Below are positions 6,058-11,670 of a stretch of DNA of 16,766 nucleotides, one piece after another (the stretch's first letter is position 1; each line of letters opens with the position of its first letter). This DNA is from [Archangium] primigenium (GTDB taxonomy: Bacteria > Myxococcota > Myxococcia > Myxococcales > Myxococcaceae): positions 1-16,766 of the forward strand of contig JBQGEZ010000862.1 in assembly GCA_052039915.1 (NCBI GenBank), given 5' to 3'. The translations under genes were made by a program, and so were the position numbers. A model generated the notes under the pieces. The model searched no databases. It had not been told where the DNA came from and was given only the letters and a program-made list of their open reading frames with translations.

Positions 6058-6240
6058 GTGCCGTGAATCCTCTTTCCCCACCCTACCAGAACAACCCCGC
6101 CGTCGCGGTCTCTCTCACATAGCCGGGAGGCGCCCTCGCCGCCGCCCCGACGCGGCCCCGGGAAAACCCCGTCTACCAGTGAACCCGGCGGCGCGAGGGC
6201 CCTCGCGGGGGGTCCCGAGGCCATGCGAAAGGAAGGAGCC

Positions 6241-7314
6241 ATGACCGCCCCCTTCCGACCCCTCCCCTTCCTCTCCGAGGCGCGTGCCGAGCAGGCGGCC
6301 GGGCCCCGGCTGCGCGCCCTGCGCCAGGCGGCCCAGCGGGCACGCGAGACCTTCACGTCCGAGGGCGCCGCCACCGCCCTGGCTACGTGTGACCTCGTCT
6401 CCTTCCCCTACCCCACCGTGTTCGCCTTCAGCGGCGCGGCGCGCTCGCCCGCGCCCTACGTGATGGTGCGGCACCGGATGCAGGTGGTGCGCTTCCAGCA
6501 GGAGGGCACCGAGCGCGTGCTGCTCTTCAATCCGAGCGACTACGAGCGCGGCCACGAGGCGCCCTTCTACAAGGCGCTGCGCGAGAAGTACGGCACCTTC
6601 GTCACCACCCAGGTGATGACGCGGCGGCACGGCACCGTGCAGGCGCACCTGGCGGCCCTGGGCCTCACGCCCGAGGACGTGGACTACCTCGCCTTCGATC
6701 ACCTGAAGGCCCAGGACGTCCGGCGCTGGCTCGGAGGGGACGGCCAGCCGGCCTACTTCCCCCGGGCGCGGCTCCTGGTGCAGCGCGCCGAGTGGGACGC
6801 CGTGCGCTGCCCCCATCCCCTGGAGCGCGTCTGGTACGTGCCCGAGGGCACCGGGGGCGTGCCTCCGGAGCGGGTGGAATTGCTGTCGGGGGACACCTGG
6901 CTCGGCCAGGGCGTGGCGCTGCTGTCCACGCCGGGCCACAGTCCGGGCAACATGTCGCTCGCGGTGGCCACCGCCGACGAGGTGTTCGTCATGAGCGAGA
7001 ACGGGGTCGCCACCGAGAGCTACACGCCCCTGCAGTCCGCCATCCCGGGGGTGCGCACCTTCGCCGAGCAGATGGGCTGGGAGGTGGTGCTCAACGGCAA
7101 CACGCGCGAGAACTCCCTGGAGCAGTACTCGTCGATGATCGTGGAGAAGGTGTTCGCGGGCCGCGCGCGGGCGGACGGAGGGTTCGTGAACGTGCACCCC
7201 TCCTCGTTGCTCACCCGCGCGGTGATGGCGCCGGGCCTGGCCCCCACGCTCACCCTGCCCCCGCCCACGTCTGGCGCCTTCACCCCGGCCGCCGCCCCCC
7301 GCCACGCGGCGTGA
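6241..7314 (+). CDS. Hypothetical protein with a metallo-beta-lactamase-like 'TPGHSPG' motif but no canonical HxHxDH motif
   Basis: The track ORF starts at ATG 6223. A second ATG at 6241 is preceded by a perfect RBS (AGGAAGGAG, about 5 nt spacing), so I prefer 6241. It contains '...LLSTPGHSPGNMSLAV...', reminiscent of MBL-fold motif 3. I found no HxHxD motif by eye. Stop at 7312-7314. Confidence 0.55.
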   Translation: MTAPFRPLPFLSEARAEQAAGPRLRALRQAAQRARETFTSEGAATALATCDLVSFPYPTVFAFSGAARSPAPYVMVRHRMQVVRFQQEGTERVLLFNPSDYERGHEAPFYKALREKYGTFVTTQVMTRRHGTVQAHLAALGLTPEDVDYLAFDHLKAQDVRRWLGGDGQPAYFPRARLLVQRAEWDAVRCPHPLERVWYVPEGTGGVPPERVELLSGDTWLGQGVALLSTPGHSPGNMSLAVATADEVFVMSENGVATESYTPLQSAIPGVRTFAEQMGWEVVLNGNTRENSLEQYSSMIVEKVFAGRARADGGFVNVHPSSLLTRAVMAPGLAPTLTLPPPTSGAFTPAAAPRHAA

Positions 7315-7331
7315 GGCCCGGTGCGCCTCGG

Positions 7332-7883
7332 CTACACGGCACAGGAGCCGGGCACGTAACGCTGCTCGGTCCATGCGAGCCAGAGGTCCCGCGACTGGAC
7401 ATTGCCGACATGGATGCCATGGGCGGGATCCTGCGGGTCGAAGAACAGATACTCCCCCTTGTCCAACGCCAGACCCAGCGCCGCCACCTTCCCCGCCCTC
7501 CCCGCGCCCGCCGGGTCCACGTAATAGTCTATCTGCTCGACCCGGGCGGACTCCCGACCGCTCGGCAACAACGTCCTCAACAGGGACATCGCCCCAAAGA
7601 CATCATCGGGGTCGACCTCGAAAGCGCTCTCCATCCGAGCCACCCGCTCCATCTGGAGACCCGAGTAGCCGTCGACGACCTTGAGGCGCAGCAGCACCCG
7701 ACCCAGCTCAAGGTAGACCGCATCCCACATGGGATGGAATTGAGCGAATCGACGCAGTGGTTTGACGTCCCCCGAAAAACCACTTCCATCGTCCACGAAC
7801 CCCGTGACGACCAGGCCCTCGATCCGCTCCGCCGCCAAGAGAGCCCGGAGATCTTCCACGGACACCTTCACGCTGTCTTGCAT
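7332..7883 (-). CDS. Small hypothetical protein B (183 aa); last gene of a putative MVP-A-B co-oriented cluster
   Basis: ATG at 7883..7881, only 9 bp downstream of the gene A stop. GC is about 55-62%, lower than flanking genes. There is weak C-terminal similarity to protein A (YYVDPAGAGRAGKVAALGL...HGIHVGN versus YEVLGSPWAQEPRVARFGL...HFILVGH). Confidence 0.6.
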   Translation of the reverse strand: MQDSVKVSVEDLRALLAAERIEGLVVTGFVDDGSGFSGDVKPLRRFAQFHPMWDAVYLELGRVLLRLKVVDGYSGLQMERVARMESAFEVDPDDVFGAMSLLRTLLPSGRESARVEQIDYYVDPAGAGRAGKVAALGLALDKGEYLFFDPQDPAHGIHVGNVQSRDLWLAWTEQRYVPGSCAV

Positions 7884-10774: not shown

Positions 10775-10995
10775 GGCCGGGCTCCGGGGGGTGGGGGGAG
10801 GAACGTGCTCCCCTCCAGTGCGAAGCCCATGCCGCCCACCCCGCCCCGGCCCAGGAGGGGCACGGGCCCGGAATGGGGCACCCGCCCGCCCCAGAACGGG
10901 TCAGAGGTGGACCGACATGGCGCGGTCCTCGGGCAGGCGAGGAGACAGGCCCCGGGCCCACGCGGCCGTGTGGCTTCCGGAGCCCTTGTGGTTAT

Positions 10996-11655
10996 ATGGC
11001 CCCAGGCATGACGACCGGATCTCCAGAAGGCCCTTCGCCGCAGTGGAAGGACATCCACCAGTCCGTCCTGGCGTCGCTTGACGCGCTGCATTCCGCCACG
11101 AACTGGCTCGCCACCGCCGCCACGGCGGGCATCGAGCCCATCTTCGAGCGCGTCCTGCAGCACGTGTGCGAGCCCCTTGGCGTCACCCCCGAGGCGTACA
11201 TCGAGGTCATCACCCAGGACGCGGGCATGCGGCGCGACGTGCAGAAGCGCCTGTCGCGGCTGATGGAGAACCCGAAGCTGCAGGCGCTGCGCCGCGACGC
11301 CCAGCGCCGCGAGGCCGAGCACCAGCTGCACGTGCTGCACTACATGCTCTCCGGGAAGAAGCCGCCGGACTGGGTGTGGTCGGCCATCGACGACGAGCAG
11401 CGCGAGCAGCTCCAGGAGGCGGCCGAGTCCGGCGAGGAGCGCAACGACGCGCTGCTGCCGCGCGTGCACGCCGCCCTCACCAAGCTCGACACGACGCCCG
11501 CCGCCTACGGGCGGTGCGAGGACTGCAAGGCGGCCATTCCCCTGGAGCGCCTGCAGCTCGTGCCGTGGGCGGAGTGCTGCGCGGCGTGCCAGCGCAAGCG
11601 CGAGGGCGTGCCGGACGATCAGCCCGAGCCCGAGGTGCGCGTCACCCACTTCTGA
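10996..11655 (+). CDS. DksA/TraR-family C4 zinc-finger protein with an N-terminal extension
   Basis: The C-terminus 'YGRCEDCKAAIPLERLQLVPWAECCAACQ' is the DksA/TraR CxxC-N17-CxxC zinc finger. The track start (10873, R/G/P-rich N-terminus) is unlikely. An ATG at 10996 (MAPGMTTG...) or 11008 is more plausible, but the start is uncertain. Stop TGA at 11653-11655. Divergent from MVP. Confidence 0.65.
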   Translation: MAPGMTTGSPEGPSPQWKDIHQSVLASLDALHSATNWLATAATAGIEPIFERVLQHVCEPLGVTPEAYIEVITQDAGMRRDVQKRLSRLMENPKLQALRRDAQRREAEHQLHVLHYMLSGKKPPDWVWSAIDDEQREQLQEAAESGEERNDALLPRVHAALTKLDTTPAAYGRCEDCKAAIPLERLQLVPWAECCAACQRKREGVPDDQPEPEVRVTHF

Positions 11656-11670
11656 GCGCGCGGGCGCTCA
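11653..11670. terminator. Inverted repeat TGAGCGC-GCGG-GCGCTCA spanning the convergent stop codons of the TraR/DksA-like gene and ruvA
   Basis: Read directly: 7-bp GC-rich stem, 4-nt loop. Both stop codons (TGA at 11653 on +, TCA at 11668, i.e. TGA on -) form the stem ends. There is no U-tract, so at most it is a bidirectional pause/stability element. Confidence 0.3.

What the first reader, a model, noticed from the sequence alone, without database searches (positions are those of the whole stretch)
6058..11667. yebC-ruvC-ruvA and ruvB are separated by about 5.6 kb carrying the MVP cluster, a TraR/DksA gene and an MBL-like gene
In most bacteria ruvA and ruvB are adjacent and co-transcribed, often as yebC-ruvC-ruvA-ruvB. 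Here ruvA ends at 11668 and ruvB starts at about 6057-6081 on the same strand. Between them lie five genes of mixed orientation: TraR/DksA (+), then MVP, A and B (-), then MBL-like (+), with the small genes at lower GC. This looks like an insertion into the ruvA-ruvB junction, leaving ruvB with its own upstream region and a translationally coupled downstream hypothetical gene. It provides a plausible route by which the MVP locus was acquired. It may also uncouple ruvB from ruvA expression.
Basis: inference. Interest (0 to 1): 0.5.

Follow-up and report, generated by a model that had tools for sequence, protein, structure and literature searches.

The report
Old variable gap splitting ruvA and ruvB
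The 5.6 kb gap between ruvA and ruvB is real, but it is an old gap shared by many myxobacteria whose contents keep changing, not one recent insertion that delivered the vault-protein gene.

Summary
**Observation: confirmed.** On the minus strand, yebC-ruvC-ruvA ends at 11668 and ruvB starts at 6057. Between them lie a DksA/TraR zinc-finger gene (+), MVP, A and B (-), and an MBL-like gene (+). A and B have low GC3 (0.76-0.80, against 0.90-0.97 for their neighbours).

**Interpretation: partly supported.**
- ruvA-ruvB adjacency is ancestral. It is seen in 36 of 55 informative outgroup loci and in basal Myxococcaceae MAGs.
- The split is old and built in layers:
  - The MBL-like gene, divergent from ruvB, is shared with Myxococcus, Corallococcus, Hyalangium, Archangium and Vitiosangium.
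  - The DksA-like gene is shared with Archangium and Vitiosangium.
  - MVP lies in the same gap in Vitiosangium and in a 92-94% relative.
  - Only A and B are specific to this lineage.
- Gap content elsewhere is unrelated, and gap length runs from 1 kb to more than 10 kb.
- There is no integrase, tRNA or flanking repeat.
- MVP has host-like GC3. It carries a conserved sigma-54-type promoter that travels with it to non-ruv sites, for example in Corallococcus.
- A and B look like orphan polymorphic-toxin immunity genes. A VgrG-Rhs module fills the same slot in a close relative.
- ruvB has a conserved promoter-like motif of its own, so its uncoupling from ruvA predates MVP.

This is ordinary genome plasticity at a local hotspot.

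The parts
12938..13687 (-). yebC (YebC/PmpR family regulator), first gene of the yebC-ruvC-ruvA block
   Evidence: NF001030, 4e-98. It lies upstream of ruvC-ruvA in most related loci.
12276..12848 (-). ruvC
   Evidence: PF02075, 3.8e-43. It overlaps the ruvA start by 4 bp.
11668..12279 (-). ruvA, the last gene of the upstream block. It is convergent with the DksA-like gene, with a 12-bp spacer.
   Evidence: TIGR00084, 3.5e-57.
10996..11655 (+). DksA/TraR C4 zinc-finger protein, about 219 aa. The ORF opens at 10873, but orthologues start at MAPGMTTG/MVPGMTTG.
   Evidence: PF01258, 2e-10. Orthologues lie next to ruvA in Archangium, Vitiosangium, L085 and L081 at 54-99% identity.
10819..10833 (-). 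Sigma-54-type -24/-12 promoter-like element GGCATGGGCTTCGCA, 45 nt upstream of the MVP start
   Evidence: It is the only match in the window, with 0.04 expected by chance. It is conserved upstream of MVP in L085, L082, L083, L086 and L087, including loci outside the ruv region.
8501..10774 (-). Bacterial major vault protein homologue (757 aa)
   Evidence: Pfam Vault, Vault_2/3/4 and MVP_shoulder. It is 85-99% identical to the MVP of other Myxococcaceae and about 39% identical to eukaryotic MVP. GC3 is 0.97.
8448..8473 (.). Strain-level indel site. The 98%-identical genome L081 carries about 300 extra bp here, encoding an 83-aa DUF7660 protein.
   Evidence: blastn and alignment. DUF7660 hit at 3.9e-31.
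7893..8438 (-). Gene A (180 aa), a probable orphan immunity-type protein. It has an AGGAG Shine-Dalgarno 8 nt upstream of the ATG.
7332..7883 (-). Gene B (183 aa), a probable orphan Rhs-toxin immunity protein
   Evidence: Only 5 homologue clusters exist. The Sorangium homologue sits directly 3' of a 1328-aa Rhs protein, next to VgrG. GC3 is 0.80.
6223..7314 (+). MBL-fold, lactonase-like gene, divergent from ruvB. It is the oldest resident of the gap.
   Evidence: NCBIfam lactonase models score about 1e-10, below their cut-offs. Orthologues at 55-98% identity lie next to ruvB in L001-L004, L011, L081 and L082, and in the same interval in L085 and L168, where ruvB lies beyond the fetched sequence.
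6058..6222 (.). Divergent MBL/ruvB intergenic region. The promoter-like motif GCGACG-N15-TAGGGT lies at 6080-6106 on the minus strand.
   Evidence: The motif is conserved in the window, L081, L001, L082, L002 and L003. The generic sigma-70 scan found nothing.
5026..6057 (-). ruvB
   Evidence: NF000868, 7e-151.
3539..5029 (-). 496-aa hypothetical gene whose start overlaps the ruvB stop by 4 bp
   Evidence: Coordinates. It follows ruvB throughout Myxococcaceae, including genomes with adjacent ruvA-ruvB. It has no Pfam family.

Best explanation
The ruvA|ruvB junction of crown Myxococcaceae is an old operon break that has become a local gene-flux hotspot.

**Order of events**
- The ancestral organisation was yebC-ruvC-ruvA-ruvB-hyp496.
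- An MBL-fold gene landed upstream of ruvB in divergent orientation, before Myxococcus, Corallococcus, Stigmatella/Hyalangium and Archangium diverged. From then on ruvB (with hyp496) used its own promoter in the 120-220 bp MBL/ruvB spacer.
- The space between ruvA and MBL has since gained and lost unrelated genes, lineage by lineage.

**This window (a Melittangium / Archangium primigenium-like genome)**
- It holds a DksA-like gene inherited from the Archangium-group ancestor.
- It holds a self-contained MVP cassette with a sigma-54-type promoter, also present in this gap in Vitiosangium and in a 92-94% relative.
- It holds two recently acquired low-GC3 genes, A and B. These are most likely orphan immunity genes against polymorphic (Rhs/T6SS) toxins. 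They sit in the micro-slot that carries a VgrG-TPR-Rhs-immunity module in the closest relative outside this species (L085).

**What is shown and what is inferred**
- Shown: the gene identities, the synteny series, the composition, the absence of mobile-element marks, and the conserved motifs.
- Inferred: the order of events, promoter function, and the immunity role of A and B.
For: **Adjacency is ancestral**
- ruvA-ruvB are no more than 300 bp apart in 36 of 55 informative non-Myxococcaceae loci.
- The same holds in basal Myxococcaceae MAGs L005, L008 and L012-L015.

**Gap contents, locus by locus**

| Locus | Genes between ruvA and ruvB |
|---|---|
| L011 | MBL only |
| M. xanthus, Corallococcus | repeat protein + MBL |
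| L004 | GMC oxidoreductase ... DJ-1, MBL, ADH |
| Hyalangium | glyoxalase ... IleRS, MBL (ruvB beyond the fetched sequence) |
| Archangium L001 | DksA, hyp215, MBL |
| A. violaceum | ATP-grasp, DksA, hyp211, Na/H exchangers; more than 10 kb |
| Vitiosangium | ATP-grasp, DksA, hyp211, M10 peptidase, MVP, hyp187, GxGYxYP, MBL, hyp228; 12.4 kb |
| L085 | DksA, MVP, VgrG, TPR, Rhs, MBL (ruvB beyond the fetched sequence) |
| L081 | as the window, plus DUF7660 |

**MVP is not a recent arrival**
- MVP identity tracks the flanking genes: 94% with L085, 90% with Vitiosangium, 85% with Corallococcus. RuvB is 94% with Vitiosangium and 84% with Corallococcus.
- MVP GC3 is 0.97.
- In Corallococcus M7, L084 and L087, MVP sits in other genomic contexts. 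In L083, L086 and L087 it carries the same upstream sigma-54-like element.

**A and B**
- They occur only in the window and L081, with low GC3.
- The A region is the most divergent stretch between the two 98%-identical strains.
- The B homologue lies directly 3' of an Rhs gene in Sorangium.

**ruvB promoter.** A conserved upstream motif is present.
Against: - The species tree is only a neighbour-joining tree of RuvC+RuvA, without support values. On it, two genomes with adjacent ruvA-ruvB (L005, L012) nest among split ones. So either MBL was lost twice or the tree is wrong.
- Whether MVP was gained once in the gap and then lost from Archangium L001 and A. violaceum, or gained twice, is unresolved.
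- Promoter motifs are sequence conservation only. The generic sigma-70 scan found nothing.
- The immunity role of B rests on a single genomic context. That of A rests on a moderate fold match, and Foldseek found nothing significant.
Confidence: 0.75

Rival explanations
1. One recent insertion (a genomic islet) carrying DksA, MVP, A, B and MBL split a contiguous ruvA-ruvB.
For: - Adjacency is ancestral.
- The interval has mixed gene orientation, and A and B have low GC.
Against: - The five genes have different phylogenetic depths.
- MBL alone occupies the gap in L011.
- DksA and MBL occur without MVP in L001.
- MVP, DksA and MBL have host-like GC3 (0.90-0.97).
- There is no integrase, tRNA or flanking repeat.
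Confidence: 0.05
2. The split is simply the ancestral organisation of the whole family. Nothing was 'inserted' in any lineage relevant to this window. The adjacent cases in Myxococcaceae MAGs are secondary fusions or belong to other families.
For: - All cultured crown genera examined are split: Myxococcus, Corallococcus, Stigmatella, Hyalangium, Archangium, Vitiosangium and Melittangium.
- L005 and L012, which have adjacent genes, nest within split taxa on the NJ tree.
Against: - Deep Myxococcaceae MAGs (L008, L013-L015), Anaeromyxobacter, Polyangia and the outgroups are adjacent, so the split is derived at some node.
- Content turnover is demonstrably continuing: the DUF7660 indel between 98%-identical strains, and A/B against VgrG-Rhs in L085.
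Confidence: 0.15
3. The interval is a functional unit. MVP, the DksA-like regulator and the MBL enzyme would act with RuvAB in DNA repair or recombination, which would explain their position inside the ruv cluster.
For: - DksA and MVP are divergent neighbours in the window, L081 and L085.
- MBL is always beside ruvB.
Against: - MVP lies in unrelated contexts in Corallococcus M7, L084 and L087.
- In Vitiosangium it is separated from DksA by two genes.
- Gap content is unrelated across genera.
- MVP carries its own conserved promoter wherever it lies.
Confidence: 0.05

Closest known systems
Canonical ruvAB operon and the yebC-ruvC-ruvA-ruvB cluster (E. coli ruvAB; own knowledge of the textbook organisation)
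   Same: The RuvA, RuvB, RuvC and YebC equivalogs are all present, on one strand and in the canonical order.
   Different: ruvA and ruvB are 5.6 kb apart, with opposite-strand genes between them. ruvB is paired with a divergent MBL gene and a clade-specific 496-aa downstream gene.
Chromosomal gene-flux or integration 'hotspots' between conserved core genes (a general concept in bacterial comparative genomics; own knowledge)
   Same: The flanks are fixed core genes (ruvA, MBL-ruvB). Between them are unrelated accessory genes and large length variation (1 to more than 10 kb). Cargo includes toxin/immunity modules and an IS element in L017.
   Different: No integrase, tRNA or att-like repeats were found here. 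The slot also holds old, host-adapted genes (DksA-like, MVP) and, in Stigmatella and Hyalangium, IleRS.
Orphan immunity genes of polymorphic toxin systems (Rhs/T6SS)
   Same: - A and B are small stand-alone genes of atypical composition.
- The B homologue lies directly 3' of an Rhs gene in Sorangium.
- The same slot in L085 holds VgrG-TPR-Rhs plus a small ORF.
   Different: There is no toxin gene in the window. There is no sequence match to any curated immunity family. Function is untested.
Bacterial major vault protein homologues (Daly et al. 2013, PMC3762200; Sokolskyi 2019, bioRxiv 10.1101/872010)
   Same: Myxobacterial MVP homologues, for example in Corallococcus coralloides, are already reported. 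The window protein has the full Vault-repeat and shoulder architecture.
   Different: The parts of those papers read here do not describe genomic context. The ruvA-ruvB location and the conserved sigma-54-like promoter are seen here only.

Membership tests
Contiguous ruvAB / yebC-ruvCAB operon | RuvA, RuvB, RuvC and YebC orthologues are present on one strand in the canonical order | tested here: met
   TIGR00084, NF000868, TIGR00228 and NF001030 all score above their cut-offs.
Contiguous ruvAB / yebC-ruvCAB operon | ruvA and ruvB are adjacent and can be co-transcribed | tested here: not met
   There is a 5610-bp gap with two opposite-strand genes. Transcription was not measured.
Integrated mobile element or genomic island | An integrase, recombinase or transposase lies within or at the edge | tested here: not met
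   None of the five interval proteins matches such a family. An IS5-type transposase was seen only in relative L017.
Integrated mobile element or genomic island | Flanking direct repeats or a tRNA attachment site | tested here: not met
   Only short, chance-level repeats were found. There are no tRNA genes.
Integrated mobile element or genomic island | Composition is atypical across the whole insert | tested here: not met
   Only A and B deviate (GC3 0.76-0.80). MVP, DksA and MBL have host-like GC3 of 0.90-0.97.
Major vault protein (Pfam Vault repeats + MVP_shoulder) | Vault repeat domains followed by the shoulder domain | tested here: met
   PF01505, PF17794, PF17795, PF17796 and PF11978 all score above their gathering thresholds.
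Major vault protein (Pfam Vault repeats + MVP_shoulder) | Assembly into vault particles | not testable with these tools
   This needs electron microscopy or biochemistry.
Polymorphic-toxin (Rhs/T6SS) immunity genes | The gene lies immediately 3' of a toxin gene | tested here: inconclusive
   Not so in the window. It is so for the B homologue in Sorangium So ce204. The same slot in L085 holds an Rhs module.
Polymorphic-toxin (Rhs/T6SS) immunity genes | Sequence or fold match to a known immunity family | tested here: inconclusive
Sigma-54-dependent promoter (upstream of MVP) | GG at -24 and GC at -12 with canonical spacing (TGGCACG-N4-TTGCW) | tested here: met
   GGCATGGGCTTCGCA at 10819-10833. 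It is a single match, with 0.04 expected. It is conserved in 6 loci.
Sigma-54-dependent promoter (upstream of MVP) | Dependence on RpoN and an enhancer-binding protein | not testable with these tools
   This needs genetics or transcript mapping.

The most novel reading that the evidence does not exclude
The ruvA|ruvB junction is a clade-wide recombination hotspot in Myxococcaceae. It repeatedly captures conflict cargo (VgrG-Rhs modules, orphan immunity genes). In the Melittangium/Vitiosangium group it also holds a relocatable, sigma-54-driven vault-protein cassette. This would imply that bacterial MVP is a stand-alone gene regulated by an enhancer-binding protein, possibly in development or stress, which would make it experimentally tractable.
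Probability: 0.3. Interest if true: 0.45.

Novelty: new member of a known kind. Interest (0 to 1): 0.3.

Why it matters
**Annotation and regulation.** In crown Myxococcaceae, ruvB should not be assumed to be co-transcribed with ruvA. It probably has its own promoter, shared divergently with an MBL-fold gene.

**The vault question.** The location inside the ruv cluster says little about MVP function or origin. Two results are more useful:
- Myxobacterial MVP is a stand-alone cassette with no conserved partner genes.
- It carries a conserved sigma-54-type promoter.

**A and B.** They add two uncharacterised candidate immunity families.

Tried and rejected
- **Rfam and tRNA scans of the window:** nothing found.
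- **Generic sigma-70 promoter and terminator scan of 5900-11900:** no promoters; terminator count no higher than in shuffled sequence.
- **Repeat search for att-like direct repeats at the gap edges:** only short chance matches.
- **PADLOC scan of the interval proteins:** no defence-system hits.
- **Pfam at E up to 1 for A, B, hyp215 and hyp496:** nothing usable. Pfam over 55 A-family members gave only one weak hit, to Pua-like.
- **Foldseek against the PDB for the A model:** nothing significant.
- **A conserved 'MVP operon':** rejected. The gene downstream of MVP differs in every locus.
- **Assembly chimera across the gap:** rejected, because the complete genome L081 is colinear.
- **Literature search for a described ruvA/ruvB split in Myxococcus:** nothing relevant.
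- **First sigma-54 pattern:** it had the wrong spacer and matched nothing. It was corrected.
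Full report
**1. Observation**

The window has about 70% GC. Real genes stand out by GC3 above 0.9. Pfam and NCBIfam confirm the genes below.

| Gene | Coordinates | Strand | Note |
|---|---|---|---|
| yebC | 12938-13687 | - | |
| ruvC | 12276-12848 | - | |
| ruvA | 11668-12279 | - | |
| DksA/TraR zinc-finger protein | 10996-11655 | + | the ORF opens at 10873 |
| MVP | 8501-10774 | - | 757 aa, full Vault-repeat and shoulder architecture |
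| A | 7893-8438 | - | unannotated |
| B | 7332-7883 | - | unannotated |
| MBL-fold, lactonase-like gene | 6223-7314 | + | |
| ruvB | 5026-6057 | - | |

- The ruvB stop overlaps the start of a 496-aa hypothetical gene by 4 bp.
- The gap between ruvA and ruvB is 5610 bp.
- A and B are about 64% GC with GC3 of 0.76-0.80. Their neighbours are 70-73% GC with GC3 of 0.90-0.97.
- The window is a whole 16,766-bp NCBI contig.
- A complete 9.3 Mb genome labelled Melittangium boletus (CP185340.1, locus L081) is about 98% identical and colinear across the gap. The arrangement is therefore not an assembly artefact.

**2. Is adjacency the norm?**

I scanned one genome per GTDB species with a RuvA alignment. 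I then mapped all window proteins onto the 80 loci returned.

- Outside Myxococcaceae, 36 of 55 informative loci have ruvB within 300 bp of ruvA. Nine more have it within 1.3 kb. These loci include Anaeromyxobacter, Polyangia, Acidobacteriota and Desulfuromonadales.
- Several deep Myxococcaceae MAGs are also adjacent (L005, L008, L012-L015). Where enough downstream sequence was fetched, most of them also have the 496-aa gene after ruvB.
- Contiguous yebC-ruvC-ruvA-ruvB-hyp496 is therefore the ancestral state. The split is derived.

**3. The split is old and layered**

Every cultured crown genus I could examine is split, but with different content.

| Locus | Genes between ruvA and ruvB | Gap size |
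|---|---|---|
| MAG L011 | MBL gene only | 1.1 kb |
| M. xanthus, Corallococcus | secreted repeat protein + MBL | about 3 kb |
| L004 | GMC oxidoreductase, two hypotheticals, DJ-1, MBL, alcohol dehydrogenase | 5.9 kb |
| Hyalangium | glyoxalase, DUF4846, thioredoxin, B12-binding protein, IleRS, MBL, ADH | ruvB beyond the fetched sequence |
| Stigmatella | CotH, a sigma factor ... IleRS | more than 10 kb |
| Archangium SZUA-606 (L001) | DksA, hyp215, MBL | 2.7 kb |
| A. violaceum | ATP-grasp, DksA, hyp211, two Na/H exchangers ... | more than 10 kb |
| Archangium L017 | ATP-grasp, DksA, hyp215, then a rearranged region with an IS5-type element | no ruvB within 10 kb |
| Vitiosangium | ATP-grasp, DksA, hyp211, M10 peptidase, MVP, hyp187, GxGYxYP protein, MBL, hyp228 | 12.4 kb |
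| JGI contig L085 (RuvA 92%, MVP 94%) | DksA, MVP, 100-aa ORF, VgrG, TPR protein, Rhs toxin with a ParB-like nuclease tip, small ORF, MBL | ruvB beyond the fetched sequence |

- The MBL gene is the oldest resident. It sits divergently next to ruvB wherever ruvB is in view, sometimes with one gene between them.
- DksA dates to the Archangium-group ancestor.
- MVP is shared, in this gap, by the window, L081, L085 and Vitiosangium.
- A and B occur only in the window and L081.
- A rough NJ tree of RuvC+RuvA agrees with this nesting. It leaves open whether MVP was lost from some Archangium lineages or gained twice.

**4. MVP is not a recent arrival and not part of a cluster**

- Its GC3 (0.97) is host-like.
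- Its identity to relatives falls in step with RuvB: 90% against 94% for Vitiosangium, and 85% against 84% for Corallococcus.
- In Corallococcus M7, L084 and L087 it lies in unrelated neighbourhoods.
- The gene downstream of MVP differs in every locus.
- A roughly 170-bp upstream region is conserved across these contexts. It contains a well-spaced sigma-54-type -24/-12 element, GGCAYG-N3-YTSGCA. In the window it lies at 10819-10833 and is the only match, with 0.04 expected by chance.
- MVP therefore behaves as a self-contained cassette with its own promoter.
- Myxobacterial MVP homologues are already in the literature (PMC3762200; bioRxiv 10.1101/872010).

**5. A and B**

- B has only five homologue clusters among 5.8 billion protein clusters. 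The Sorangium So ce204 homologue lies immediately 3' of a 1328-aa Rhs protein and next to VgrG. That is the classic position of an immunity gene.
- A belongs to a family of 328 clusters of small stand-alone proteins with no annotation.
  - Its AlphaFold model is confident, with pLDDT 92.
  - Foldseek finds nothing significant.
- The slot that holds A and B is filled by a VgrG-Rhs module in L085.
- It is also the most variable stretch between the window and the 98%-identical L081. Identity there is 88-91%, against 96-100% elsewhere. A 293-bp indel there carries a DUF7660 gene.
- I infer that A and B are orphan immunity genes. This is not shown.

**6. No mobile-element marks**

None of the following was found:
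- integrase or transposase in the gap
- tRNA
- defence-system hits
- flanking repeats beyond chance

**7. ruvB expression**

- The 165-bp MBL/ruvB spacer contains a motif at window 6080-6106, GCGAC(A/G)-N15-16-TAGGGT. It ends about 22 nt before the ATG.
- The motif is conserved in Melittangium, Archangium, Vitiosangium, Myxococcus and Corallococcus.
- This fits a sigma-70-type promoter for ruvB-hyp496. The generic scan missed it, and function is untested.
- ruvA ends convergently, 12 bp from the DksA stop.
- Uncoupling of ruvB from ruvA is therefore likely. It dates to the MBL insertion, not to MVP.

**8. Verdict**

- 'Insertion into the ruvA-ruvB junction' holds only in the sense of an ancient, multi-step and still active gene-flux hotspot.
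- It does not explain how MVP was acquired.
- This is an ordinary kind of genome plasticity at a previously undescribed site.

Noticed in passing
window 10819-10833 (-); also upstream of MVP in L082, L083, L085, L086 and L087: A sigma-54-type -24/-12 element, plus about 170 bp of conserved upstream sequence, accompanies MVP in ruv and non-ruv contexts. This suggests that myxobacterial MVP is regulated by an enhancer-binding protein.
   Followed up: partly
window 15810-16766: The last ~950 bp drop to about 45% GC. They encode an A-rich, coiled-coil-like ORF (ATG near 15915) that runs off the contig end. The 98%-identical genome L081 has no counterpart and continues with different genes. This is either a foreign insertion or a chimeric contig end.
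   Followed up: partly
window 8448-8473 against L081 12302-12621: A strain-level indel: L081 has an 83-aa DUF7660 gene between MVP and A that the window lacks. Gene A is the least conserved segment of the whole 15.8 kb alignment.
   Followed up: yes
window 3539-5029 (-): A 496-aa protein with no Pfam family has its start overlapping the ruvB stop by 4 bp. It follows ruvB throughout Myxococcaceae, including genomes with adjacent ruvA-ruvB. It may be a clade-specific RuvB partner.
   Followed up: partly
window 6223-7314 (+), motif near residue 150: The MBL-like protein of relatives has DHLHxQD. The window and L081 have DHLKAQD, a His-to-Lys change in the presumed metal-binding motif.
   Followed up: partly
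L085 12695-20655: A complete VgrG, TPR protein, Rhs (ParB-like nuclease C-terminus) and small-ORF module sits between MVP and MBL in the closest relative outside this species.
   Followed up: yes
L017 5600-13552: In Archangium SMAG_U3264 the gap continues into an alpha/beta hydrolase, an acyltransferase, an FG-GAP/PA14 protein, an IS5-type transposase and a NACHT NTPase. No MBL or ruvB lies within 10 kb, which points to a local rearrangement.
   Followed up: no
L006, L007, L009, L010: A group of Myxococcaceae MAGs has ruvC-ruvA without yebC upstream. Where 10 kb of downstream sequence is available (L006, L007, L010), there is also no ruvB within it.
   Followed up: no
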